From Thermoanaerobaculia bacterium (GTDB taxonomy: Bacteria > Acidobacteriota > Thermoanaerobaculia > UBA5066 > Gp7-AA6): 50,147 nt of DNA. Below the pieces are notes generated by a model. That model had not been told where the DNA came from, made no database searches, and saw nothing but the letters and a program-made list of their open reading frames with translations. Positions within the stretch are counted from its first letter, which is position 1. Every line of letters begins with the position of its first letter. The stretch is taken from positions 1 through 50,147 of the forward strand of contig JBOGJN010000212.1 in assembly GCA_050745445.1 (NCBI GenBank). Direction: 5' to 3'. This document shows, one piece after another, positions 36,977-45,312 of the stretch. A program made the translations under genes and the position numbers.

Positions 36977-37744
36977 TCACCGGTAAGTATCGCGCACCTG
37001 GTCGGCCGAGAACGGAACTTCGGTGCGGCTGACATGGATCTCCCCGAAGGGCAACGGCTGGAACGCGCGGACGACCCCGAGCCGGATCAGCTCCAGGGCT
37101 GCCAGGAAGACCGTGACGGCCTCGGCGCGGTAGTGCATCTCGCCCAAGAACTCCAAGAGCGGTAACGTCCCGGCCCCTTCCAGCCGAGTCACGAGCTCTT
37201 CCATTTTCTTGCCGACCGAGAAACGCAGGTGCCGGATCTCCAGGGCCGGCGGGTGGGACAACTGGTAGCGTTCCGCGGCCTTCCGAAACGCGTCGATCAA
37301 ATCGAAAAGGGAAACTTCGAGTGAAGGCGAGGAATCCCCCGATCTCGGGATCTGGCTCTCGGGCCGGGGCCAGAGCCCGGCGCGTAACGTATCGATCTCG
37401 TGGAACGACTCGGCCATTTTCTTGTAGCGCTCGTACTCGAGAAGCCTCCGGGCCAGAGCCTCCCGCGGGTCCTCCTGCGGCGGGCCGGTAGGATGCGGAA
37501 GGAGCATTCTCGACTTGATGTAGATCAGTTCGGCCGCCAGGGCCACATATTCCGAAGCGACATCCAGGTCCAGCTCCAGCATGGTGTCCAGGTACGAGGT
37601 GTACTGCTCGGTGATTTCCGCGATGGGGATGTCGGTGATCGAAACCTGGTTGATCCGAATCAGATGCAGCAGCAGGTCCAGGGGACCACTGAACGCACCG
37701 ATCTGAACAGGCGGGAGGGCGCTCTCGGTGTGTTCGTCGGACAC
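36977..37744 (-). CDS. scpA: Segregation and condensation protein A
   Basis: GTG start. FSGPLDLLLHLIRINQVSITDIPIAEITEQY is the ScpA/kleisin N-terminus. Confidence 0.92.
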   Translation of the reverse strand: MSDEHTESALPPVQIGAFSGPLDLLLHLIRINQVSITDIPIAEITEQYTSYLDTMLELDLDVASEYVALAAELIYIKSRMLLPHPTGPPQEDPREALARRLLEYERYKKMAESFHEIDTLRAGLWPRPESQIPRSGDSSPSLEVSLFDLIDAFRKAAERYQLSHPPALEIRHLRFSVGKKMEELVTRLEGAGTLPLLEFLGEMHYRAEAVTVFLAALELIRLGVVRAFQPLPFGEIHVSRTEVPFSADQVRDTYR

Positions 37745-37781
37745 TAGAGGCTCGGTGGAGAAAGAGATGACATGCGAGCGG

Positions 37782-38471
37782 TCAGTGCCCGAACACCAGC
37801 AACAGAAGCAGTCGCTGGAATGGTCTGAAGATCCACCGCAGAAAGGGGGTCGTCATCAGGAGGATCAGGGCCAGAAGGCCAAACGGCGCCAGCACGGCGA
37901 AGGCTCTCTGCGCAGAAGGTCCGATCAGGGATGCTGCCACGCCGCTTCCGTCGAGCGGCGGAATCGGAATGAGGTTGAACACGGCCAGAGAAACGTTGAC
38001 GAGAGCAAAATAGAAAAGCACGTATGTGACCGGCGCCAGGGCACCCGCCGCGAAGTGCCTTCCCTGAAGCGCCTGCACCAGGTTGTCGATCGACTGTGGC
38101 GACAGCACACGAGTCACACGTAGGAGCAGGATGCCAACGCCGGCGAGGAGGAAGTTCGACAGAGGACCGGCCGCGGACACGACGAGGTTCGCCAGGCGCG
38201 GGTTGCGAACGTACCGGAGGTCCACGGGTGTCGGCTTCGCCGCCCCGAAGATGAAGCCGGAAAAGATGAAAAGCACGAGCGGTAACACGATGCTGCCGAA
38301 CGGGTCGATGTGCCGGATCGGGTTCAAGGAGATCCGACCCCGGTCGCGGGCCGTCGTGTCGCCGAATTGAAGCGCCGACCAGGCGTGCGCCGACTCGTGG
38401 AAGGAGATGGCAAAAAGGATGACCGCGAGCTGGATCGCGAAATCGACAACCTTGAAGCCGAGGGAGTCCAC
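37782..38471 (-). CDS. Site-2 protease family (M50) membrane metalloprotease
   Basis: HExxH in a TM helix (AISFHESAHAW) and a second motif NLIPIPPLDG. Polytopic. Confidence 0.88.
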   Translation of the reverse strand: MDSLGFKVVDFAIQLAVILFAISFHESAHAWSALQFGDTTARDRGRISLNPIRHIDPFGSIVLPLVLFIFSGFIFGAAKPTPVDLRYVRNPRLANLVVSAAGPLSNFLLAGVGILLLRVTRVLSPQSIDNLVQALQGRHFAAGALAPVTYVLFYFALVNVSLAVFNLIPIPPLDGSGVAASLIGPSAQRAFAVLAPFGLLALILLMTTPFLRWIFRPFQRLLLLLVFGH

Positions 38472-38539
38472 TCGAAGGGACTATACCCGGCGCAAGGCGG
38501 TCGGCGGAAGTTGGCAGGGGAACGGACGCCGAGGCCGGC

Positions 38540-39136
38540 TCACTTCTGCACGTCGGGCAGCTTCAGTCGCCGCTGAATTGCGAGCATGTAGCCGACCGGC
38601 TCGTGGCGCCAGGCCTTCTCCTCGACGGTCTTCGGGAAGCGCCCGCCGAGGTCACCGAGATATGTGTACGTGACGAGGCAACGGTCGAGGCCGAGCGGCT
38701 CGATGCGCGTTTCGCCCGCGACCCTCTTGATCCGGACGCCTTCGGACGGATCACCGGGTTTGGCCGCGTCGTGCCACGACAGCAGGAACCCGCCTTCCGG
38801 CAGCCGCTCGCCGCGGTAGGCCACGATGGCGTCACGGTTGCGGAACGGAAAGGGATAAGGCCAGACGAAGTGGATGCGCGCGCTCTCCCCTTCCGACTCC
38901 AGGACGGCTGCCTCCTTGACCGCAGGGTGGAAGAACTCCCGGTAGTGCGGGTAGTCGACGACGACGGTGAAGACGGCTTCGGCCGGGACCGGCAGCTCCG
39001 CGACGCCGCGGATCCACGGGGTCCCGCCGGGGACTCTAGCGATCGAGACGGAGACCTGGCGCTCGGTGAACCACGGCTCGAACGCGCGGTCCGCCGGGAT
39101 CGATGCCAGCGAGGCGGCGAGCAAAACGGCGATCAA
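38540..39136 (-). CDS. START/SRPBCC lipid-binding domain protein with signal peptide
   Basis: TTG start overlapping the MauE stop. MIAVLLAASLASIPA signal-like N-terminus. START-like FPFRNRDAIVAYRG and a C-terminal helix. Confidence 0.75.
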   Translation of the reverse strand: MIAVLLAASLASIPADRAFEPWFTERQVSVSIARVPGGTPWIRGVAELPVPAEAVFTVVVDYPHYREFFHPAVKEAAVLESEGESARIHFVWPYPFPFRNRDAIVAYRGERLPEGGFLLSWHDAAKPGDPSEGVRIKRVAGETRIEPLGLDRCLVTYTYLGDLGGRFPKTVEEKAWRHEPVGYMLAIQRRLKLPDVQK

Positions 39137-39558
39137 GAGCGCTCCCCCGCCCGTGCCGCGCCGAGGAGCCAGACGGACAGGCCAACCATCACGAGGTCCT
39201 CAGCCACCGTTGCCCAGTCGAGCGGCCGCGCCAGGAAGACGCCGAAGCAGCCGCAGTTAGAAAGCTTCAGCCCCCGCATCAGGCTCACGGCCGACCACCC
39301 GGCGTAACCAGCGTGGATCGCGACCGCGGCGATGGCCGCGCCCGCGAGCCTTCGCCCGGAGAAGAGCCAGAGCGTGAGCGCCAGCTCCGCGAGCGGGATA
39401 GCGAGCGCGAGCGGCAGGAGCGCGCCCTCGGGAAACGCCTCGTACGTGCGAAGGACGCCGGCGAAGCCGCGGAGGTCGAGCAGCTTGCCCAGGCCCGTCG
39501 CCGAGAGCACCAGCCCGATGACAAACCGCAGGACGACGCCGGCGCGCCGCCCTCTCAT
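39133..39558 (-). CDS. MauE/DoxX-family membrane protein
   Basis: Four TM helices. The LRFVIGLVLSATGLGKLLDL ... NCGCFG motif is typical of MauE-like proteins. ATGA overlap with the DUF547 stop. Confidence 0.8.
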   Translation of the reverse strand: MRGRRAGVVLRFVIGLVLSATGLGKLLDLRGFAGVLRTYEAFPEGALLPLALAIPLAELALTLWLFSGRRLAGAAIAAVAIHAGYAGWSAVSLMRGLKLSNCGCFGVFLARPLDWATVAEDLVMVGLSVWLLGAARAGERS

Positions 39559-40316
39559 TGCTTGTTGAGGTTCCAGTCGTACGGGATGAAGTCCACTTTC
39601 CAGCCGCTGGGGATCTTCTCCTCCCGGTACCGGTTCACGTACTCGATGAGGCTCGGTGCTTTCTTCAGGAAGTCCTCCGTGTAGAACTGCAGGATCTGCG
39701 ACAGGAAGACGGTCTTCTTTTCCGGCTCGAGGCGCACGTTGCGCTCCTCGTTGTAGAAGCGCCCTGCCTCGCGCTCGAGCTGAGCGTCGAGCTCCGCGGC
39801 GGCGAAGGGCTCGCGGGGAAGCCTCGGGCAGCCCCGGGCCATGCAGTTCAAGGCGACGTGGACCCGCGGGTCTCCGATTGGCCGAATGACCTGGTTCTCC
39901 AACGCGTAGAGGGAAATGAACTTGCCACCCATCTCGAAGCGGTTACGGTAGAAGAAACGGACCTTCACGGCGTTCAAATCCGGTGGGAAGTCCGATTTCA
40001 AGACGTCGTAGACCGCGAGCGCGTTGTAGGCGTTGATGTAGTAGGCAAGCTTCGCTGCGGTCGTGGGGAACGACTCCGGCGCCGACTCGGGACCGATCCG
40101 GGCGATCCAGGCCACGTAGGCTTCCAGGTTCGCCGGCTTCTGGGCGATCCCGGCGAAGTCGATCCGGCCCTGGTCGTCGACGTGCCGGGAGAGCAGATTC
40201 TCCCAGGCCCTCTCCGGGGAAGGCGCGCCCTCCGGAATGATCTTCGGCGGAGGGACGTGGATCGCACAGGCGGTCAGTGTGGCGAGCAGCAGGAGCGGGA
40301 GCCTTGCGGCCTGCAT
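39555..40316 (-). CDS. DUF547 domain-containing lipoprotein
   Basis: Trimmed to MQAARLPLLLLATLTAC (lipobox-like) with a GAGGAG SD. DUF547-like YINAYNALAVYDVL ... RVHVALNCMARGCPRL. Confidence 0.8.
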   Translation of the reverse strand: MQAARLPLLLLATLTACAIHVPPPKIIPEGAPSPERAWENLLSRHVDDQGRIDFAGIAQKPANLEAYVAWIARIGPESAPESFPTTAAKLAYYINAYNALAVYDVLKSDFPPDLNAVKVRFFYRNRFEMGGKFISLYALENQVIRPIGDPRVHVALNCMARGCPRLPREPFAAAELDAQLEREAGRFYNEERNVRLEPEKKTVFLSQILQFYTEDFLKKAPSLIEYVNRYREEKIPSGWKVDFIPYDWNLNKQ

Positions 40317-40327
40317 CGGATCTCCTC

Positions 40328-41587
40328 TCACTGGATGACCGGAAGCAGCTGGCCCGAGAGCGGGTTCCACACGGCCCGGCCCTCCGCCGTGTCGACCTCG
40401 AGTGGCTTCAGAATGAACTCGTCCCGCCGGGCGTTGTGCGCGCACATGGAGATGGGTCCGTTCGACGTCATGACCATGAAGGAGCACGCGTGCAGACGCT
40501 CGGGGTCGAGCGCCGAAGCGTCCATGAAGTTCTGGACGAAGAAGGAGAGTTTGTGGACACGCCCCCGGGCGGCGAGCAGATCCCGGCGCATCTTCCAGAT
40601 CTTCGGAGCAAAGAAGCGAACCGCCCGGCCCATCCACGCGGGCCGCCGGAGGGCCTCCAGGGCGAGCGCCCAGACCACCCTCCTCGGATCACGGCGGTCG
40701 AGCATCACGTGCCGGCAGTCCGTCAAGAATCGGTTGAAGACGGCGGGATCGTCGTTCAAGTCGTAGAGGTTGCCGTTGGCCTCGAGCATCATGCCGATCC
40801 GGTGGCACATCGGATGCCCGATCAGGACGGTGTCCCAGGAGATTCTCGTGCCGGCTCCCTCGACGATCTTCTGGCGGACCGTCTCGAGCGAGATGACGCG
40901 GTCCCGCTCGCGCAGCACCCCTCGCCCGGTGTCGGCCTGGAGCTGGAAGGAAACCATGCCGACCACGTCCGCGTGCTTCCGGAAGAAGCGGATGAGATCG
41001 GGGATCTCCTCGAAGTTCGACTGGCAGACGGTGGTGTTGAAGACAACCGCGATCGGGATGCCTCGCGCCCGCTCGATGTACTCGAGGCGGATGGCGTTCA
41101 GGTCTTTCTCCGTCGCGTAGCCCCGGCGCTCCTGAGTCAAGTCCACGTGGAAGGCGATGTCGTTTAAGCCTGCGGCCGTCAACTCCTCGAGCAGGTCACG
41201 CGTGGCCTTGATGCCGTTGGTCATGAGCGTGGGGAGAAGCCCGCGCTCCCGCGTGCGGCGTACGATCTCGACCAGCTCCTCGCGTTTGCGTAGCGTCGGG
41301 TCGCCACCGGTGATCTGGACCGCCGTCCGCGCCCCGAACTGCTCCTGGATCCTGTCGATTCGCCGGAAGACCTCTTCGAGCGGGATGTCCTTGACCCGCT
41401 CGGAGTTCTCCGACAAATAGCAGAGCGTGCAGTCGAGGTTGCAGCGCTGGGTGATCTCCAGGGCCACGCAACCGATTGCGTTGCGGCGTCCGAGCACCTG
41501 ATTCTCGCGGAAGAACTTGCCCATCCGCCGGCGGGTGCGCTCGAGAGCGGCGGAGCGGTTGGGGTCAAGCGGGGCGGTGCTCGCCAT
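40328..41587 (-). CDS. Radical SAM enzyme with extended Cys-containing C-terminal domain (subfamily unresolved, possibly COG1964/tetraether-synthase-like)
   Basis: Trimmed to MASTAPL at 41587 with an AAGGAGGAGG SD. CX3CX2C motif ITQRCNLDCTLCY. VQITGGDPTL. C-terminal FVQNFMDASALDPERLHACSFMVMTSNGPISMCAHN. Confidence 0.85.
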   Translation of the reverse strand: MASTAPLDPNRSAALERTRRRMGKFFRENQVLGRRNAIGCVALEITQRCNLDCTLCYLSENSERVKDIPLEEVFRRIDRIQEQFGARTAVQITGGDPTLRKREELVEIVRRTRERGLLPTLMTNGIKATRDLLEELTAAGLNDIAFHVDLTQERRGYATEKDLNAIRLEYIERARGIPIAVVFNTTVCQSNFEEIPDLIRFFRKHADVVGMVSFQLQADTGRGVLRERDRVISLETVRQKIVEGAGTRISWDTVLIGHPMCHRIGMMLEANGNLYDLNDDPAVFNRFLTDCRHVMLDRRDPRRVVWALALEALRRPAWMGRAVRFFAPKIWKMRRDLLAARGRVHKLSFFVQNFMDASALDPERLHACSFMVMTSNGPISMCAHNARRDEFILKPLEVDTAEGRAVWNPLSGQLLPVIQ

Positions 41588-41736
41588 CGTGCCTCCTCCT
41601 TGCCATTCCCGTCCAGGCTCCAAATCCGGCCCGGCAGGGCCACCTCGATGGGCTTTTCGTAGATCATACGGTGAGAAGGGCTCCAACAGATGCCTCCACG
41701 GCGCGATCCGATCCTCTCCCCGCCCGCGGAGGACGC

Positions 41737-41761
41737 GAAACCTTTCCCGGCTCCGGGCGTC
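41737..41761 (+). promoter_or_regulatory. Candidate ECF-type promoter (GAAAC-N16-CGTC) upstream of the ECF sigma gene
   Basis: GAAAC at 41737-41741 and CGTC at 41758-41761, 36 nt before the ATG at 41797. This is a pattern match only. Confidence 0.3.
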
Positions 41762-41796
41762 TCCGGAAGTGCCGTGCCGATCGGAACGAAGCGAAA

Positions 41797-42369
41797 ATGG
41801 ACGGCGGGATGACCGAAGACCGCCGGCTGCTCGAGCGCATCCGCGAAGGCGACACGAGCGGGGCGGGAGAGCTCTTCGAGCGGTATGCCGCCCCGATCCT
41901 CCGTTTCGCGGATCGCCTGCTGTCCGACCGGTCGGCCGCAGAAGAGGTAACACAGGAAGTGTTCGTGAAAGCGATCTCCCGGGCCCACCAGTACAATGGG
42001 CGAGCCGAGGTTTCCTCCTGGCTCTTCGCGATCGCGGCTAATGCGTGCCGCGACCGCCGGCGCCGGGATCGCCGCGCCTCTGTGATTCCGCTGGAGGCGA
42101 TTCCGGAGCCCTCCCAGAGAGGGGACGGTGTCGAGGCGAGCCTCATGCGCCGGGAACAGAAAAACGCCGTGCGCCGCGCCCTCCAATCCCTTTCGGAGGA
42201 GCAGCGCGAGGCTCTGGTCCTCGCCCGCTATCACGGAATGCCCTATGCCGAGATCGCTCGCGTCCTCGGTATCTCGGTGGGCGCGGTCAAGACCCGCATC
42301 TTTCGGGCCGTGGAGACCCTGAAGGCCCGTTTTTCCGAAGGAGAAGCCTCATGGAATGCAGCGAACTGA
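41797..42369 (+). CDS. ECF-family RNA polymerase sigma-70 factor
   Basis: Trimmed to MDGGMTEDRRLLERIREGD. Region 2 (ELFERYAAPILRFA..EEVTQEVFVKA) and region 4 HTH (MPYAEIARVLGISVGAVKTRIFRA). Confidence 0.9.
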   Translation: MDGGMTEDRRLLERIREGDTSGAGELFERYAAPILRFADRLLSDRSAAEEVTQEVFVKAISRAHQYNGRAEVSSWLFAIAANACRDRRRRDRRASVIPLEAIPEPSQRGDGVEASLMRREQKNAVRRALQSLSEEQREALVLARYHGMPYAEIARVLGISVGAVKTRIFRAVETLKARFSEGEASWNAAN

Positions 42370-43277
42370 CCGGTCTGGCCGTGGACGGGCTGCTTGGTGA
42401 GTCGGCGGAGTCGCTCCGCCGCGAGGTCGCCGGGCATCTGGAAACCTGCCGGGCGTGCCGGGAGGAAATGGCCCGCATCGAGCAGGCCTGGACGGCGCTC
42501 GGGGAGGACCCGGATGCCTCGGTGACGCCGGAGTTTCGGCGGCGTTCCATGGAGCTTTTGGAGGAGGAGTTGCTGCGACAGCGCATCCGCACTTTCCGGC
42601 CGGCGGCCCGGTGGCCGCGCCTGCTCCTGCGGGCCGCGGCAATGCTCTTGGCGGCCGCGGGCGGCTACCTTGCGGCGCGTGCCGGGGCACGGGCCTCCCG
42701 CCCCGCGGCTGCGGTGGCCGCGGCGCCGGAGTTCGACCCGAGCTCCGCCCTCTCGAACGTCTCCTACCGTCCGGCAGACGCGCAGGGGAAGATCGGCGTG
42801 TCGTTCGACGTCACCTCCCGGCACACCGTCGTCGCGCGCGCCGAGGATCCGGAGATGGCCAGGCTGCTCGCCTACCTCGTTTCGCGCAATACGCAGACGT
42901 CCGGGGAGAAGTCGCGGGCCATCGAGCTGGTGTCTTCTCACTATGGCGCGGGCGTGGCTCCCGCATCACCCGACATCGTCCGCGCTCTGACGAGTACGTT
43001 GAAGCGGGATCAGAACCCGGGCGTGCGCAAGAAGGCGGCGGACGCGCTGGCCGGATTCGCCATGACGCCGGACATCCGGGGCGCCTTTCTGGATGCCCTC
43101 CAAACCGACCGCAACCCCGCCGTGCGGCTGACGGCCATCGAAGCGCTCGCGATTGCCGCAAAGGCTTCTCCCGATCCGAAAACCATCGAATCGCTGCGGG
43201 AGAAGGCCTTCGACCCATCGGAAAACGGCTTCGTGCGCGCAAAAGCGGCCTCGGCCTTGAAAGCGATCGAGTTCTGA
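42351..43277 (+). CDS. Anti-sigma factor (zf-HC2) with TM helix and periplasmic HEAT-repeat domain
   Basis: Trimmed to MECSEL at 42351 (19-nt overlap with the sigma gene). HLETCRAC = Hx3Cx2C. TM LLLRAAAMLLAAAGGYLAA. HEAT-like DQNPGVRKKAADALA and DRNPAVRLTAIEALA. Confidence 0.82.
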   Translation: MECSELTGLAVDGLLGESAESLRREVAGHLETCRACREEMARIEQAWTALGEDPDASVTPEFRRRSMELLEEELLRQRIRTFRPAARWPRLLLRAAAMLLAAAGGYLAARAGARASRPAAAVAAAPEFDPSSALSNVSYRPADAQGKIGVSFDVTSRHTVVARAEDPEMARLLAYLVSRNTQTSGEKSRAIELVSSHYGAGVAPASPDIVRALTSTLKRDQNPGVRKKAADALAGFAMTPDIRGAFLDALQTDRNPAVRLTAIEALAIAAKASPDPKTIESLREKAFDPSENGFVRAKAASALKAIEF

Positions 43278-43290
43278 GAGGAGCGCGAGA

Positions 43291-45312
43291 ATGCGGATCG
43301 TAACCTCCAAGACTTCCGGCGCGTCTCTCTCGACGATGAGCAAAGAAACGAGAATCCCGGGCCTCTCGTCCCGAAGCGAGCATCCCGACTGGGCAGGGCT
43401 CTGGCTGTTGCTCGTCCTCGGCCTTCTCCTGATGCTTGCGGCGACCGTTTCACGGGCGGAGCCCGACGGCTTCACGGCGCAGCGGGTGGACCACTTCGGC
43501 GCGACACTCGGGCCTTCCTCCACCGTGCGGATCCAGAACATTTCGGGCGACATCCTGGCCTCCCCCGGCAAGGAGTTTTCCGCGACCGTCACGCTGACCG
43601 TGACCGCCCCGACACAGAAGCGGGCCGAAGAGGCTCTGGCGAAGACGAAGATCGAGCAGCAGCGGGACGACGATGAGTTCTCACTGGAGACTCGTTGGCC
43701 CGGCTCTCGCGGCTCCGACTTCGGCAGCCGGCGACACGGAGAGTCCCGCTGCCGCGACTGCAAGATCACCGCGAAGTACGAAGTCTTCCTTCCGCCCGGC
43801 GTGAACGCGGTACTCCACACGGTCAACGGAGAGGTCCACGTCCGCGAACTGGACGGGGAACTCGACCTCCAGAGCGTCAACGGGGACGTGCTGGCGCGAG
43901 GATCACGCCAGTCGGTCACGGCCCAGAGCGTCAACGGCAAGATCGACGTGGCCGCGCAGGCCCTACCGTCGGATGCCTCGCTGGAGCTGAAGACCGTCAA
44001 CGGAGCCGTCGTTCTGACGCTTCCGAAAGACGCCACATTCGAGCTTTCGGCCTCCACGATGAACGGCACGATCGCCTCGACCTTCCCCCTCCCCTTCCGT
44101 GGGGGGACTCCGGAGGCGGAGGAGCGTCACCTGCTGTCCAGGCCGCTGCTCAACGGCGCAGAGGCGCCGCGCAAGAAGGAGCCCGCCTCGGCTGCCCCGC
44201 GGCCGCCCCGGCACGTCACAGTGCGGGACCGGGAAGACGGGGGGGTCGAGGTGGATGTCCAGGAGATCGAGAGAGAAATCGAAGAGTCGATGAGGGAGAT
44301 CGAAGTCGAGATTCGGGAGTCGATGCACGAGCTGGATCGGGCCCAGCACGAATTGAGCCGCATAAGGATTCTCAACCCGCGGCGCGAGTACTCCGGCTCC
44401 ATTGGCCAGGGAGGGGCGAGCGTGAGCCTCTTGACCTTGAACGGCGCCATCAGCCTGCTGGCCGCGGGGACCAAGGAGAGCGACGCGAAGCCTCTCGTTT
44501 CACAGCGGCGCTCCATCGTCGTGACCGTCCCACCCGTACAGGTGAAGGTCATCAGGCCGGCTCCCGCGGCGCCGCCCGCTCCCCCGGCCCCACCGGCGCC
44601 TCCGGCGGCGCCCATGCCCCCCAAAGAGGGCGAGGACGTCGTTCGGGGAGACATCGCGGGGGACTTCTTCTCGACCTCCGGGCACGGGGATTACCACGTG
44701 GGGCACGTGAGCGGGAAGGCCAGGATCCTGACGCACTCGGGTGAGATTCGTGTGGCCTCCACCGGCGCAGACGCCGATCTGAAGACCTACGGAGGCGACG
44801 TCGTCATCGGCTCCGTCGGCGGAGACCTGAAGGCGCAGACGCTGGCCGGTGACATCCAGGCGCAGTCCGTCGCCGGCGGCGTCAGGGTGGAGACTTCGGG
44901 AGGAGACATCCGGATCGACCGCGTGAAGGCGTCCGCCGAGGCTCGCACGGCGGGCGGAGACATCGTTCTCTCTTCCGTCGGGGGCGGTGTGCAGGCGGAC
45001 ACGGCGGGCGGAGACGTCCGGGTGACCGTCGTCTCGCGGGAGGCAAGGGCTGGCGTCTCCATCCGCAACTCGGGCGGGGACGTGACGCTCACGCTGCCGG
45101 CCGACTTCCGCGGCGATGTGGATCTCGGGGTCTCCGGTTGTGCCGGGTTCGAAGAGACGCTGATCCACTCCGATTTTCCCGAGATCGCGCTGACGCGCAA
45201 GTCCGGCTCCCAGCACGCTTCGGGGACCTTGAACGGAGGCGGCTCGAAGGTGGTGGTGCGCGCGACTTCCGGCGAGATCCACCTTCGAAAGGGCCCGCCG
45301 GCCGGCTCCTAG
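43291..45312 (+). CDS. DUF4097 (putative adhesin/beta-helix) repeat protein with coiled-coil and Pro-rich linker
   Basis: N-terminal TM/signal GLWLLLVLGLLLMLAA. Two blocks of NG[DEK]I/V and GGD[IV] beta-helix repeats (e.g. TYGGDVVIGSVGGDLKAQTLAGDIQAQSVAGGVRVETSGGDIRI). Linker PAPAAPPAPPAPPAPPAAPMPP. Confidence 0.8.
   Translation: MRIVTSKTSGASLSTMSKETRIPGLSSRSEHPDWAGLWLLLVLGLLLMLAATVSRAEPDGFTAQRVDHFGATLGPSSTVRIQNISGDILASPGKEFSATVTLTVTAPTQKRAEEALAKTKIEQQRDDDEFSLETRWPGSRGSDFGSRRHGESRCRDCKITAKYEVFLPPGVNAVLHTVNGEVHVRELDGELDLQSVNGDVLARGSRQSVTAQSVNGKIDVAAQALPSDASLELKTVNGAVVLTLPKDATFELSASTMNGTIASTFPLPFRGGTPEAEERHLLSRPLLNGAEAPRKKEPASAAPRPPRHVTVRDREDGGVEVDVQEIEREIEESMREIEVEIRESMHELDRAQHELSRIRILNPRREYSGSIGQGGASVSLLTLNGAISLLAAGTKESDAKPLVSQRRSIVVTVPPVQVKVIRPAPAAPPAPPAPPAPPAAPMPPKEGEDVVRGDIAGDFFSTSGHGDYHVGHVSGKARILTHSGEIRVASTGADADLKTYGGDVVIGSVGGDLKAQTLAGDIQAQSVAGGVRVETSGGDIRIDRVKASAEARTAGGDIVLSSVGGGVQADTAGGDVRVTVVSREARAGVSIRNSGGDVTLTLPADFRGDVDLGVSGCAGFEETLIHSDFPEIALTRKSGSQHASGTLNGGGSKVVVRATSGEIHLRKGPPAGS

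What the first reader, a model, noticed from the sequence alone, without database searches (positions are those of the whole stretch)
38540..41587. Translationally coupled operon: radical SAM enzyme - DUF547 lipoprotein - MauE/DoxX membrane protein - secreted START lipid-binding protein
The four genes are separated by 11 nt, a 4-nt overlap (ATGA) and a 4-nt overlap (TTGA), so they are almost certainly co-expressed. The radical SAM protein (419 aa) has the CX3CX2C motif ITQRCNLDCTLCY and VQITGGDPTL. It also has a roughly 200-aa C-terminal domain ending FVQNFMDASALDPERLHACSFMVMTSNGPISMCAHN. From memory, this tail resembles the ...FMD...D..R...C...G....C..N tail of the COG1964 radical-SAM family, which includes the archaeal tetraether (GDGT) lipid synthase. 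Here the N-terminal zinc-ribbon/extra-cluster region of those enzymes is missing. The partners are an envelope lipoprotein of unknown function, a MauE/DoxX-type membrane redox protein and a START-domain protein (a lipid-binding fold). That combination suggests chemistry on, or trafficking of, a membrane lipid, for example tail-to-tail coupling to membrane-spanning lipids. I do not recognise this four-gene combination as a described system. The assignment is a hypothesis.
Basis: inference. Interest (0 to 1): 0.7.

Follow-up and report, generated by a model that had tools for sequence, protein, structure and literature searches.

The report
Tes-like radical SAM lipid-modification operon
A four-gene operon pairs a trimmed-down relative of the archaeal tetraether-lipid synthase with three envelope proteins; the enzyme and its DUF547 partner recur across many bacterial phyla, often beside or fused to arsenic-sugar pathway genes, which points to an undescribed membrane-lipid modification rather than tetraether synthesis.

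Summary
Four minus-strand genes lie at 38540-41587, joined by an 11-nt gap and ATGA and TTGA overlaps. They encode a radical SAM enzyme, a DUF547 lipoprotein, a MauE membrane protein and a secreted START/SRPBCC protein.

The radical SAM protein is a relative of GDGT-MAS/Tes. GDGT-MAS is its best PDB match by sequence (1e-21) and by fold (TM 0.62 over 408 columns). It lacks the Tes rubredoxin and N-terminal cluster domains and scores far below the Tes and TrsS model cut-offs, so it is a separate, uncharacterised subfamily.

The conserved core is rSAM plus DUF547: 63 of 77 genome loci across at least five phyla, and 49 of 53 metagenome loci. MauE is frequent. START occurs only in Acidobacteriota, and a secreted chalcone-isomerase-like protein takes its place elsewhere.

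New here: the pair repeatedly sits with arsenosugar-pathway genes (ArsS, ArsM-like, nucleosidase, TIGR04282/04283 transferases). The TIGR04283 transferase lies directly upstream in three close relatives and is fused to the rSAM in one lineage. The window itself has no such genes.

Best reading: a lipid-tail-modifying enzyme with periplasmic thiol-redox and lipid-carrier partners. Its chemistry is unproven. Tetraether or membrane-spanning lipid synthesis is not supported by the taxonomic distribution.

The parts
40328..41587 (-). Radical SAM enzyme, 419 aa. It belongs to the Tes/GDGT-MAS superfamily as a distinct subfamily. It has the radical SAM core plus a C-terminal auxiliary-cluster-type domain, and lacks the rubredoxin and N-terminal cluster domains.
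   Evidence: Pfam and NCBIfam. PDB by sequence: 7TOL, 1e-21. AF2 model pLDDT 86.9. Foldseek: 7TOL, TM 0.62, 408 aligned columns. Invariant C40, C49/C53/C56, C261, C368, C382 and near-invariant M333.
39555..40316 (-). DUF547 lipoprotein, 253 aa. Lipobox LTAC (Cys17). Invariant HxxLNCMxxxCPRL cysteine pair (C158, C163).
   Evidence: Pfam 2.9e-19. Alignment A3. Lipobox or signal peptide present in partners from all phyla. AF2 pLDDT 92.9 with no PDB fold match. Directly downstream of the rSAM in 63/77 genome loci and 49/53 metagenome loci.
39133..39558 (-). MauE/DoxX-type membrane protein, 141 aa, with an invariant N-C-G-C-F-G motif (C102, C104).
   Evidence: Pfam MauE 3.3e-19. Conservation across 33 partners from six lineage groups (five phylum/class-level taxa). 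Present in 47 of 77 genome loci.
38540..39136 (-). Secreted START/SRPBCC (Polyketide_cyc2) protein, 198 aa, TTG start. Putative lipid carrier.
   Evidence: Pfam START 2.6e-5 and Polyketide_cyc2 4.3e-6. Homologues carry signal peptides or lipoboxes. Found only in Acidobacteriota loci. START-like genes also follow paralogous rSAMs (L048, L076; L113).
41655..41671 (-). Conserved 17-nt motif CCGTATGATCTACGAAA, 68-84 nt upstream of the rSAM start codon. Candidate promoter (-10-like TATGAT) or operator (CGTA-N5-TACG).
   Evidence: Unique in the window, with 0 expected by chance. Present once per locus, always just upstream of the rSAM, in 24 related loci.
37782..38471 (-). M50 (site-2-protease-type) membrane metalloprotease, 68 nt downstream on the same strand. 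Possible fifth operon gene or merely conserved synteny.
   Evidence: Pfam Peptidase_M50 3.9e-15. Follows START, or the rSAM/DUF547 when MauE and START are absent, in most loci of the clade.
41797..42369 (+). Divergently transcribed ECF sigma factor. An ECF-type promoter-like motif, GAAAC-N16-CGTCT, lies at 41736-41764.
   Evidence: Pfam Sigma70_r2/r4_2/ECF. Start codon and motif. An ECF sigma plus a 113-aa gene directly precede paralogous rSAM operons in L017, L054 and L145.
42351..43277 (+). Anti-sigma factor: zf-HC2 domain, one predicted membrane helix, and periplasmic HEAT repeats.
   Evidence: Pfam zf-HC2 and HEAT_2. Start codon.

Best explanation
The operon encodes a membrane-lipid modification module. 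Its catalytic subunit is a cytoplasmic, minimal Tes/GDGT-MAS-like radical SAM enzyme.

**Proposed mechanism**
1. The enzyme binds the hydrocarbon tail of a membrane (glyco)lipid.
2. It cleaves SAM reductively at the CX3CX2C cluster.
3. The 5'-deoxyadenosyl radical abstracts a hydrogen from an unactivated tail carbon.
4. As in GDGT-MAS, the C-terminal [4Fe-4S] cluster (probably C261, C368, C382 and M333) captures the substrate radical and resolves it.
5. The second reaction partner is not established. The contexts favour a thiophilic heteroatom species (an arsenical or sulfur) or a glycolipid made by the TIGR04283 transferase, rather than a second lipid tail.
6. The product then reaches the periplasmic leaflet.
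7. There the DUF547 lipoprotein (CxxxxC) and MauE (CGC) carry out thiol-dependent redox or binding chemistry on it.
8. The secreted START protein carries the lipid through the periplasm.
9. Expression is probably controlled by envelope stress through the adjacent ECF sigma/anti-sigma pair.

**Shown:** the fold, the conserved residues, the localisation signals, and the gene linkage and fusion.

**Inferred:** the substrate class, the reaction chemistry, and the role of each partner.
For: **Tes-like enzyme**
- GDGT-MAS is the top PDB match by sequence and by fold. The fold match covers the whole length, including the C-terminal domain; the next best is MoaA at TM 0.46.
- C368 and C382 align to GDGT-MAS cysteines. 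Near-invariant M333 falls about where the labile cluster ligand Met439 lies.

**Conserved partners**
- rSAM->DUF547 adjacency: 63/77 genome loci in Acidobacteriota, Bdellovibrionota, Nitrospinota, Gamma-, Beta- and Alphaproteobacteria, and 49/53 metagenome loci.
- The partners are extracytoplasmic and rich in cysteine motifs.
- DUF547 is fused to thioredoxin-like DUF1223 in a marine clade.
- ResA-like thioredoxin, rhodanese and MerA-like disulfide reductase genes recur nearby.

**Lipid link**
- START in Acidobacteriota and secreted Chalcone_3 in Bdellovibrionota, Burkholderiales and Alphaproteobacteria occupy the same operon position.
- DedA/VTT, patatin and esterase genes lie nearby.

**Arsenosugar link**
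- ArsS (441.9 bits against a cut-off of 300), ArsM-like, nucleoside hydrolase and TIGR04282/04283 genes lie within 6 kb in 11 of 14 Bdellovibrionota loci. They also occur in Acidobacteriota and Gammaproteobacteria loci.
- In L043, MauE-DUF547-ArsS-nucleosidase form a single same-strand gene run (apparent operon).
- The TIGR04283 transferase lies immediately upstream in L003, L017 and L145, whose rSAMs are 78-80% identical to the window's.
- A 712-aa TIGR04283-rSAM fusion is present in three independent assemblies.
Against: - No biochemical data exist for any family member.
- The 50-kb window carries no ArsS, ArsM or TIGR04283 gene. Most loci of its clade lack them within 6-10 kb.
- In other Thermoanaerobaculia the TIGR04283 homologue lies elsewhere in the genome.
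- The 'arsenosugar' names of TIGR04282/04283 rest on genomic association, not on assays.
- The fusion protein sits beside a carotenoid gene cluster rather than arsenic genes. The common theme may therefore be lipids or isoprenoids in general.
- Cluster ligands and lipid pockets are inferred from alignment and a predicted model. The model coordinates could not be inspected.
Confidence: 0.5

Rival explanations
1. Membrane-spanning lipid synthase. The enzyme couples two fatty-acyl or alkyl tails tail-to-tail to give iso-diabolic-acid or brGDGT-type lipids, filling the role of the missing acidobacterial synthase.
For: - The fold and C-terminal cluster domain are Tes-like.
- The acidobacterial iso-diabolic acid synthase is unknown: no Mss was found, and Tes homologues occur in only 3 of 14 producers (PMC13159169).
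- Zeng et al. proposed that bacterial Tes homologues make brGDGTs (PMC8941075).
- A lipid-binding START partner is present.
Against: - The family is widespread in Nitrospinota, Bdellovibrionota, Methylococcales and Burkholderiales. To my knowledge these do not make membrane-spanning lipids.
- None of the best 80 genome hits comes from the acidobacterial subdivisions known to make iso-diabolic acid.
- The score against the Tes model is 102.6 against a cut-off of 450, and the match covers only the core.
- The idea does not explain the thiol-redox partners or the arsenosugar linkage.
Confidence: 0.13
2. Arsenolipid synthase. The tail-carbon radical attacks a trivalent arsenical such as DMAs(III) and forms an As-C bond, giving dimethylarsinoyl fatty acids or hydrocarbons. 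Alternatively the enzyme remodels the tails of arsenosugar lipids. DUF547 and MauE would handle the trivalent, thiol-reactive arsenic in the periplasm.
For: - Arsenosugar genes are linked to the pair in three phyla, and the TIGR04283 transferase is fused to the rSAM.
- An ArsR/SmtB regulator ends the operon in a Burkholderiaceae locus, and ArsC-like genes lie nearby.
- ArsS offers a chemical precedent, a carbon radical adding to As(III) (established knowledge).
- No genes for arsenic-containing fatty acids or hydrocarbons turned up in the literature search.
Against: - No arsenic genes lie in the window or near most Nitrospinota, Gammaproteobacteria and Thermoanaerobaculia loci.
- To my knowledge arsenolipids have not been reported from these bacteria.
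- The fusion locus is next to carotenoid genes, not arsenic genes.
Confidence: 0.15
3. Sulfur-inserting enzyme. The substrate radical is trapped by a sulfide of the C-terminal cluster and released as a thiolated lipid, in the manner of LipA or BioB. The periplasmic dithiol proteins then manage the lipid thiol or disulfide.
For: - GDGT-MAS forms a substrate-sulfur adduct when SAM is limiting (PMC9433317 and PMC13459092).
- The enzyme lacks the N-terminal domains of Tes.
- Every recurrent partner is related to thiols, disulfides or sulfur: DUF547 CxxxxC, MauE CGC, DUF1223, ResA-like, rhodanese and MerA-like.
Against: - To my knowledge no thiolated membrane lipid is known from these taxa.
- This does not by itself explain the glycosyltransferase fusion.
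Confidence: 0.1
4. Protein or peptide maturase. The rSAM modifies DUF547 or another exported protein before secretion, and MauE plays the role it has in methylamine dehydrogenase maturation.
For: - MauE is named for its role in maturing an exported enzyme subunit.
- DUF547 has an invariant cysteine pair.
- Many rSAM hits in NCBIfam are peptide maturases.
Against: - Those maturase hits cover only the radical SAM core.
- There is no SPASM/twitch or RRE domain hit.
- The full-length fold match is to a lipid enzyme.
- There is no room for a precursor peptide gene: the gaps are 11 nt or overlaps.
- This does not explain the lipid-binding partners.
Confidence: 0.07

Closest known systems
GDGT-MAS / tetraether synthase Tes (M. 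jannaschii MJ0619, PDB 7TOL; NCBIfam NF045702)
   Same: - Radical SAM core with CX3CX2C.
- A C-terminal domain of the same fold (TM 0.62 over 408 columns).
- The shared FMDA...C...C.(H/Y)N tail, with two aligned cluster cysteines and a methionine near the Met439 position.
- Probably a lipid-tail substrate.
   Different: - Lacks the rubredoxin-like domain (C9/C12/C33/H36) and the [4Fe-4S]N domain (C73/C77/C80).
- About 22% identity. The model score is 102.6 against a cut-off of 450, and only residues 41-253 align.
- Bacterial, with conserved DUF547 and MauE partners that Tes is not known to have.
- The taxa are not tetraether producers.
TrsS radical SAM (seleno)protein (NCBIfam NF045646)
   Same: Best-scoring NCBIfam model (113 bits). 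The alignment spans nearly the whole protein (40-385 against 87-430 of 441), so the C-terminal architecture is shared.
   Different: - The score is far below the cut-off of 490.
- There is no selenocysteine codon.
- TrsS itself is uncharacterised, and the paper that describes it (PMC12013261) could not be read here.
Bacterial membrane-spanning lipid synthase Mss (Thermotoga, Clostridia)
   Same: A radical SAM enzyme acting on fatty-acyl tails, described as remotely related to Tes with a similar catalytic architecture (PMC13159169, PMC13274423).
   Different: - No Mss sequence was available, so no direct comparison was made.
- Mss is restricted to anaerobes. This family occurs in many aerobes.
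Arsenosugar biosynthesis cluster (ArsM, ArsS TIGR04167, TIGR04282 and TIGR04283 transferases)
   Same: The rSAM-DUF547 pair is embedded in or adjacent to such clusters in Bdellovibrionota, some Acidobacteriota and a gammaproteobacterium. It is fused to TIGR04283 in one lineage.
   Different: - The rSAM is not ArsS: it gives no TIGR04167 hit and has no DUF3641 domain.
- The window has none of these genes.
- No described arsenosugar pathway includes a Tes-like enzyme, DUF547 or MauE.
MauE/MauD of methylamine dehydrogenase maturation, and DoxX-type membrane thiol-oxidoreductase complexes
   Same: A small polytopic membrane protein with a conserved Cys motif that works with periplasmic cysteine-containing partners.
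   Different: There are no mau genes here. The partner is DUF547, not a thioredoxin-like MauD.

Membership tests
Tes / GDGT-MAS (NF045702) | Whole-protein score at or above the curated cut-off (450 bits) | tested here: not met
   102.6 bits, with only residues 41-253 aligned.
Tes / GDGT-MAS (NF045702) | N-terminal rubredoxin-like iron site (C9X2C12X20C33X2H36) | tested here: not met
   The protein has only about 40 residues before the radical SAM motif, with a single Cys (C40). The alignment starts at GDGT-MAS residue 111.
Tes / GDGT-MAS (NF045702) | N-terminal auxiliary [4Fe-4S] cluster (C73, C77, C80 plus His) | tested here: not met
   No equivalent segment or Cys triad is present.
Tes / GDGT-MAS (NF045702) | Radical SAM CX3CX2C cluster and partial TIM barrel | tested here: met
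   C49/C53/C56 are invariant. Pfam Radical_SAM 3e-18. The fold match agrees.
Tes / GDGT-MAS (NF045702) | C-terminal auxiliary-cluster domain (three Cys plus the labile Met439) next to the lipid pockets | tested here: inconclusive
   The fold aligns over the whole length (TM 0.62). C368 and C382 align to GDGT-MAS cysteines. C261 is invariant and M333 is near-invariant at about the Met439 position.
Tes / GDGT-MAS (NF045702) | Catalyses tail-to-tail Csp3-Csp3 coupling of lipid chains | not testable with these tools
   Needs an enzymatic assay or lipidomics.
TrsS (NF045646) | Score at or above the 490-bit cut-off; often a selenoprotein | tested here: not met
   113 bits. The ORF has no in-frame TGA.
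SPASM/twitch peptide-modifying radical SAM maturases | C-terminal SPASM/twitch Cys-rich domain; RRE or an adjacent precursor peptide | tested here: not met
   No SPASM Pfam hit. The maturase models match only the core, at no more than 56 bits. No intergenic space exists for a peptide gene.
ArsS (TIGR04167) | Radical SAM core plus a DUF3641 C-terminal domain; score at or above 300 bits | tested here: not met
   TIGR04167 is not among the 25 best of 62 NCBIfam families matched, and Pfam gives no DUF3641 hit. True ArsS genes are separate neighbours in other loci.
Mss (bacterial membrane-spanning lipid synthase) | Homology to the T. maritima or T. ethanolicus Mss (E <= 1e-50, identity >= 30% in the authors' definition) | not tested
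DUF547 (PF04784) | Pfam gathering score (27 bits) | tested here: met
   69.7 bits.
MauE (PF07291) | Pfam gathering score (27 bits); conserved Cys motif | tested here: met
   69.9 bits. NCGCFG is invariant.
START / SRPBCC (PF01852, PF10604) | Pfam gathering scores (22 and 27.4 bits) | tested here: met
   24.1 and 27.5 bits, both only marginally above threshold.

The most novel reading that the evidence does not exclude
This Tes-like enzyme family is the missing catalyst that attaches arsenic to, or otherwise builds, bacterial arsenolipids. A radical generated on a lipid tail is coupled to a trivalent arsenical or to an arsenosugar lipid made by the fused or adjacent TIGR04283 transferase. DUF547, a fold with no solved relative, and MauE would form a new periplasmic system that handles the thiol-reactive product. 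This would be a new reaction type for the radical SAM superfamily, and the first genes for arsenic-containing fatty acid or hydrocarbon-type lipids.
Probability: 0.15. Interest if true: 0.9.

Novelty: new variant of a known kind. Interest (0 to 1): 0.7.

Why it matters
**Bacterial GDGT-MAS homologues.** These are acknowledged as enzymes of unknown function (PMC9433317). They are being used to infer who makes brGDGT palaeoclimate biomarkers. JGI already labels some members of this family 'tetraether lipid synthase'. Showing that this large subfamily (more than 3,000 proteins, at least 545 species genomes) has a different architecture, different partners and a different distribution warns against that inference.

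**A testable module.** The work defines a compact unit: rSAM + DUF547 + MauE + lipid carrier, with a glycosyltransferase fusion.

**Links to open problems.** The arsenosugar linkage connects the module to two open questions. One is the genetic basis of arsenolipids. The other is the function of DUF547, which is widespread in bacteria, fused to glutaredoxin in plants, and here predicted with high confidence to adopt a fold without a solved relative.

Tried and rejected
- **rSAM-DUF547 fusions.** P0096 (665 aa) is a frameshift read-through and not a real fusion. P0366 (656 aa) keeps the lipoprotein signal between the two domains and is known from one contig only, so it is left open.
- **Look-up of the window's rSAM.** An exact look-up in the contig index found nothing.
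- **DUF547 against solved structures.** There is no match by sequence or by fold.
- **Regulatory RNA and signals.** No Rfam family or riboswitch lies in 37500-42500. No sigma-70 promoter and no terminator above background was found.
- **Arsenic genes in the window.** tblastn with ArsS, ArsM, nucleosidase, TIGR04282/04283, Chalcone_3, rhodanese and MerA-like queries found none.
- **Literature.**
  - Searches for DUF547 with radical SAM, for arsenolipid biosynthesis genes, and for arsenosugar with MauE/DoxX returned nothing relevant.
  - The paper defining TrsS (PMC12013261) is not held.
- **rSAM promoter.** The conserved motif upstream of the rSAM does not match the GAAAC-N16-CGTCT motif of the sigma gene, so direct control by that ECF sigma is not shown.
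- **Taxon of the fusion organism.** It could not be assigned. The rSAM part is 52-54% identical to all labelled clades.

Full report
**Observation.** Four minus-strand genes occupy 38540-41587.
- The radical SAM (rSAM) gene is 40328-41587 (419 aa). Its ATG is preceded by AAGGAGGAGG. The longer 541-aa ORF that starts at a GTG is not supported.
- The DUF547 gene is 39555-40316 (253 aa) and follows after 11 nt that contain GAGGAG.
- The MauE gene is 39133-39558 (141 aa) and overlaps DUF547 by ATGA.
- The START gene is 38540-39136 (198 aa, TTG start) and overlaps MauE by TTGA.
- Pfam confirms all four families. START and Polyketide_cyc2 score only just above their thresholds.
- The DUF547 protein begins with a lipoprotein signal (LTAC, Cys17).
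- START relatives carry signal peptides or lipoboxes.
- No promoter or terminator signal above background, and no Rfam element, lies within the block.

**The enzyme: relation to known families.**
- NCBIfam ranks two models first. TrsS scores 113 bits against a cut-off of 490, with nearly the full length aligned. Tes scores 102.6 bits against a cut-off of 450, with only residues 41-253 aligned. All peptide- and cofactor-maturase models match the core only.
- The best solved relative by sequence is GDGT-MAS (7TOL, 1e-21).
- An AlphaFold2 model built on 45 homologues has pLDDT 86.9 and pTM 0.88.
- That model matches 7TOL at E 2.9e-17 and TM 0.62 over 408 columns. The next hit is MoaA at TM 0.46.
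- GDGT-MAS has a rubredoxin site (C9/C12/C33/H36), an N-terminal cluster (C73/C77/C80 plus His), the radical SAM cluster, and a C-terminal cluster with the labile Met439. That last cluster forms the substrate-sulfur intermediate (PMC9433317; PMC13459092).
- The window protein starts about 40 residues before its CX3CX2C motif, so it lacks the first two metal sites.
- Its invariant cysteines are C40, C49/C53/C56, C261, C368 and C382. M333 is near-invariant and falls about where Met439 would align.

**The enzyme: family size and limits.**
- The protein belongs to the Tes superfamily but not to Tes or TrsS.
- More than 3,360 proteins match at E <= 1e-5.
- The family is well delimited. Full-length representatives score 300-450 bits, and the next full-length relatives score about 120-145 bits. 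None of these lower-scoring relatives reaches any NCBIfam cut-off.
- Source annotations disagree, with names such as 'tetraether lipid synthase', 'pterin dimethyltransferase' and 'PFL activase'.

**Conservation of the neighbourhood.**
- The window comes from a Thermoanaerobaculia MAG.
- A scan of one genome per species found at least 545 encoding loci. The best 79 come from Acidobacteriota (Thermoanaerobaculia, Holophagales), Bdellovibrionota, Nitrospinota, Methylococcales and other Gammaproteobacteria, Burkholderiales, and Alphaproteobacteria.
- DUF547 lies directly downstream on the same strand in 63 of the 77 loci that have room for it.
- MauE is present in 47 loci.
- START is present in 19 loci, all of them Acidobacteriota.
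- In metagenomes, DUF547 lies directly downstream in 49 of 53 loci.
- The full order, rSAM-DUF547-MauE-START followed by an M50 protease, is typical of the window's clade.
- The cross-phylum core is therefore rSAM+DUF547, usually with MauE.

**Nature of the partners: thiol-redox features.**
- DUF547 partners are lipoproteins or secreted proteins in every phylum.
- They keep an invariant HxxLNCMxxxCPRL cysteine pair.
- The predicted DUF547 fold is confident (pLDDT 92.9) but has no relative in the PDB, by sequence or by fold.
- MauE partners keep an invariant NCGCFG motif.
- In a marine clade DUF547 is fused to DUF1223, which to my knowledge is a thioredoxin-like family.
- Nitrospinota loci add a ResA-like thioredoxin.
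- Burkholderiales loci add a rhodanese.
- Several lineages add a MerA-like flavoprotein disulfide reductase, sometimes fused or adjacent to a DedA/VTT membrane domain.

**Nature of the partners: lipid-related features.**
- At the operon end, START in Acidobacteriota is replaced by a secreted chalcone-isomerase-like protein (Chalcone_3) in Bdellovibrionota, Burkholderiales and an alphaproteobacterium.
- START-like genes also follow paralogous rSAMs.
- Two unrelated hydrophobic-ligand-binding folds at the same position, together with DedA, patatin and esterase neighbours, favour a lipid product.

**An unexpected link to arsenosugar genes.**
- In 11 of 14 Bdellovibrionota loci the pair lies among arsenic-related genes. 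These are:
  - ArsS (TIGR04167, 441.9 bits against a cut-off of 300);
  - an ArsM-like methyltransferase;
  - a nucleoside hydrolase;
  - the TIGR04282 and TIGR04283 'arsenosugar' transferases;
  - an ArsC-like phosphatase.
- The arrangements vary between loci. In L043, MauE-DUF547-ArsS-nucleosidase form a single same-strand gene run (apparent operon).
- The link is not confined to one phylum:
  - TIGR04283 lies directly upstream of the rSAM in a gammaproteobacterium (L074, 277 bits).
  - It also lies directly upstream in three Thermoanaerobaculia whose rSAMs are 78-80% identical to the window's: L003 at 186.9 bits, L145 at 189.3 bits and L017 at 179.3 bits, against a cut-off of 182.
  - An acidobacterial paralogue locus has ArsM-like and TIGR04282 genes (L073).
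  - A metagenome locus has ArsM (L106).
  - A Burkholderiaceae operon ends with an ArsR/SmtB regulator.
- The top representative hit, P0361 (712 aa), is a fusion of a TIGR04283 domain (230 bits) to this rSAM (54% identity).
- The fusion has a natural-looking linker and is found at identical length in three assemblies from two sources.
- In all three assemblies a DUF547 gene lies just upstream, and a carotenoid glycoside-ester cluster follows on the same strand.

**Limits of that link.**
- The window has none of these genes.
- Most loci of its clade lack them within 6-10 kb.
- In other Thermoanaerobaculia the TIGR04283 homologue sits elsewhere in the genome.
- The 'arsenosugar' names of the two transferases rest on association.
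- The fusion locus points to isoprenoid lipids rather than arsenic.
- I therefore treat the link as strong evidence for a shared pathway with a GT2 transferase that probably acts on a lipid, and as moderate evidence for arsenic involvement.

**Most likely mechanism.**
- A cytoplasmic, minimal Tes-like enzyme generates a radical on an unactivated carbon of a lipid tail.
- It resolves that radical at its C-terminal cluster.
- The product is handled on the periplasmic side by the DUF547/MauE dithiol pair and carried by START.
- The second reaction partner is unknown. A thiophilic arsenic or sulfur species fits the partners best. A second lipid tail, which would give a membrane-spanning lipid, fits the taxonomic distribution worst.
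- Acidobacteria still lack an identified iso-diabolic acid synthase (PMC13159169), so that reading keeps some weight.
- A protein-maturase role is unlikely: there is no SPASM or RRE domain, no precursor gene, and the fold is that of a lipid enzyme.

**Regulation and context.**
- An ECF sigma gene (41797-42369), a zf-HC2/HEAT anti-sigma gene (42351-43277) and a DUF4097 gene are transcribed divergently.
- A GAAAC-N16-CGTCT motif precedes the sigma gene (41736-41764).
- A different, highly conserved 17-nt motif (41655-41671) precedes the rSAM in 24 related loci and occurs nowhere else in them.
- ECF sigma genes also head the paralogous rSAM operons.
- Downstream lie an M50 protease and then housekeeping genes (scpA, scpB, rluB, cmk, rpsA).

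**Verdict.**
- This is an uncharacterised, widespread variant of the Tes-type lipid radical SAM enzymes with a new set of envelope partners.
- It has a newly recognised genomic link, including a gene fusion, to the arsenosugar-type glycosyltransferase pathway.
- Its function remains to be tested.

Noticed in passing
window 41655-41671 (-): A 17-nt motif, CCGTATGATCTACGAAA, lies 68-84 nt upstream of the rSAM start. It occurs exactly once, at the same relative position, in 24 related Thermoanaerobaculia loci and nowhere else in them. It contains a -10-like TATGAT and a CGTA-N5-TACG inverted repeat. It is absent where a TIGR04283 gene precedes the rSAM.
   Followed up: partly
window 41736-41764 (+), 41797-45312 (+): An ECF-type promoter-like motif (GAAAC-N16-CGTCT) is conserved upstream of a divergent operon. 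That operon encodes an ECF sigma, an anti-sigma (zf-HC2, one membrane helix, HEAT repeats) and a DUF4097 'toastrack' protein. ECF sigma genes plus a 113-aa gene also head paralogous rSAM operons in L017, L054 and L145.
   Followed up: partly
L148 9039-20340; L149; L150: A 712-aa fusion of the TIGR04283 glycosyltransferase with the Tes-like rSAM has a DUF547 gene upstream. It is followed on the same strand by a carotenoid cluster: lycopene cyclase, two CrtI-like desaturases, phytoene synthase, an acyltransferase, a GT2, Caroten_synth and an FA_desaturase-type enzyme. The organism could not be identified (GC 58%).
   Followed up: partly
L138 613-2469; L117-L132: In a marine metagenome clade (rSAM about 51% identical to the window's) DUF547 is fused to DUF1223 in a protein of about 618 aa. 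A TonB-dependent receptor and a PepSY_TM gene lie upstream.
   Followed up: partly
window 39555-40316 (-) (model mee34795e4699): DUF547 is predicted with high confidence (pLDDT 92.9), yet Foldseek finds no PDB structure with E below 4 or TM above 0.21. The fold has no solved relative.
   Followed up: yes
L145 1-9904; L017; L054: Thermoanaerobaculia carry a paralogue of the rSAM (about 57% identical) in a second operon: ECF sigma, a 113-aa protein, rSAM, DedA/VTT and DUF547. Next to it lie a spondin-domain protein, a MerA-like flavoprotein disulfide reductase and a nitroreductase. In one MAG (L021 and L054) the DUF547-MauE-START genes sit with the paralogue instead of with the orthologue.
   Followed up: partly
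L022, L023, L080, L081, L104: A clade 67% identical to the window's rSAM (Bdellovibrionales or 'Deltaproteobacteria' MAGs) has no DUF547 or MauE nearby. A tRNA-dihydrouridine synthase gene follows the rSAM instead.
   Followed up: no
window 38603-39307 (+), 39558-40766 (+), 40277-41167 (+): Long ORFs of 234-402 aa lie antisense to the four genes. They recur in relatives only as mirror images of the real genes. They are by-products of the 66% G+C content, not genes.
   Followed up: yes
window 37782-38471 (-): A small M50 (site-2-protease-type) gene follows the operon after 68 nt. In relatives it stays next to the rSAM or DUF547 even when MauE and START are missing (L011, L021). With the nearby anti-sigma factor it could form a regulated-proteolysis circuit.
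   Followed up: no
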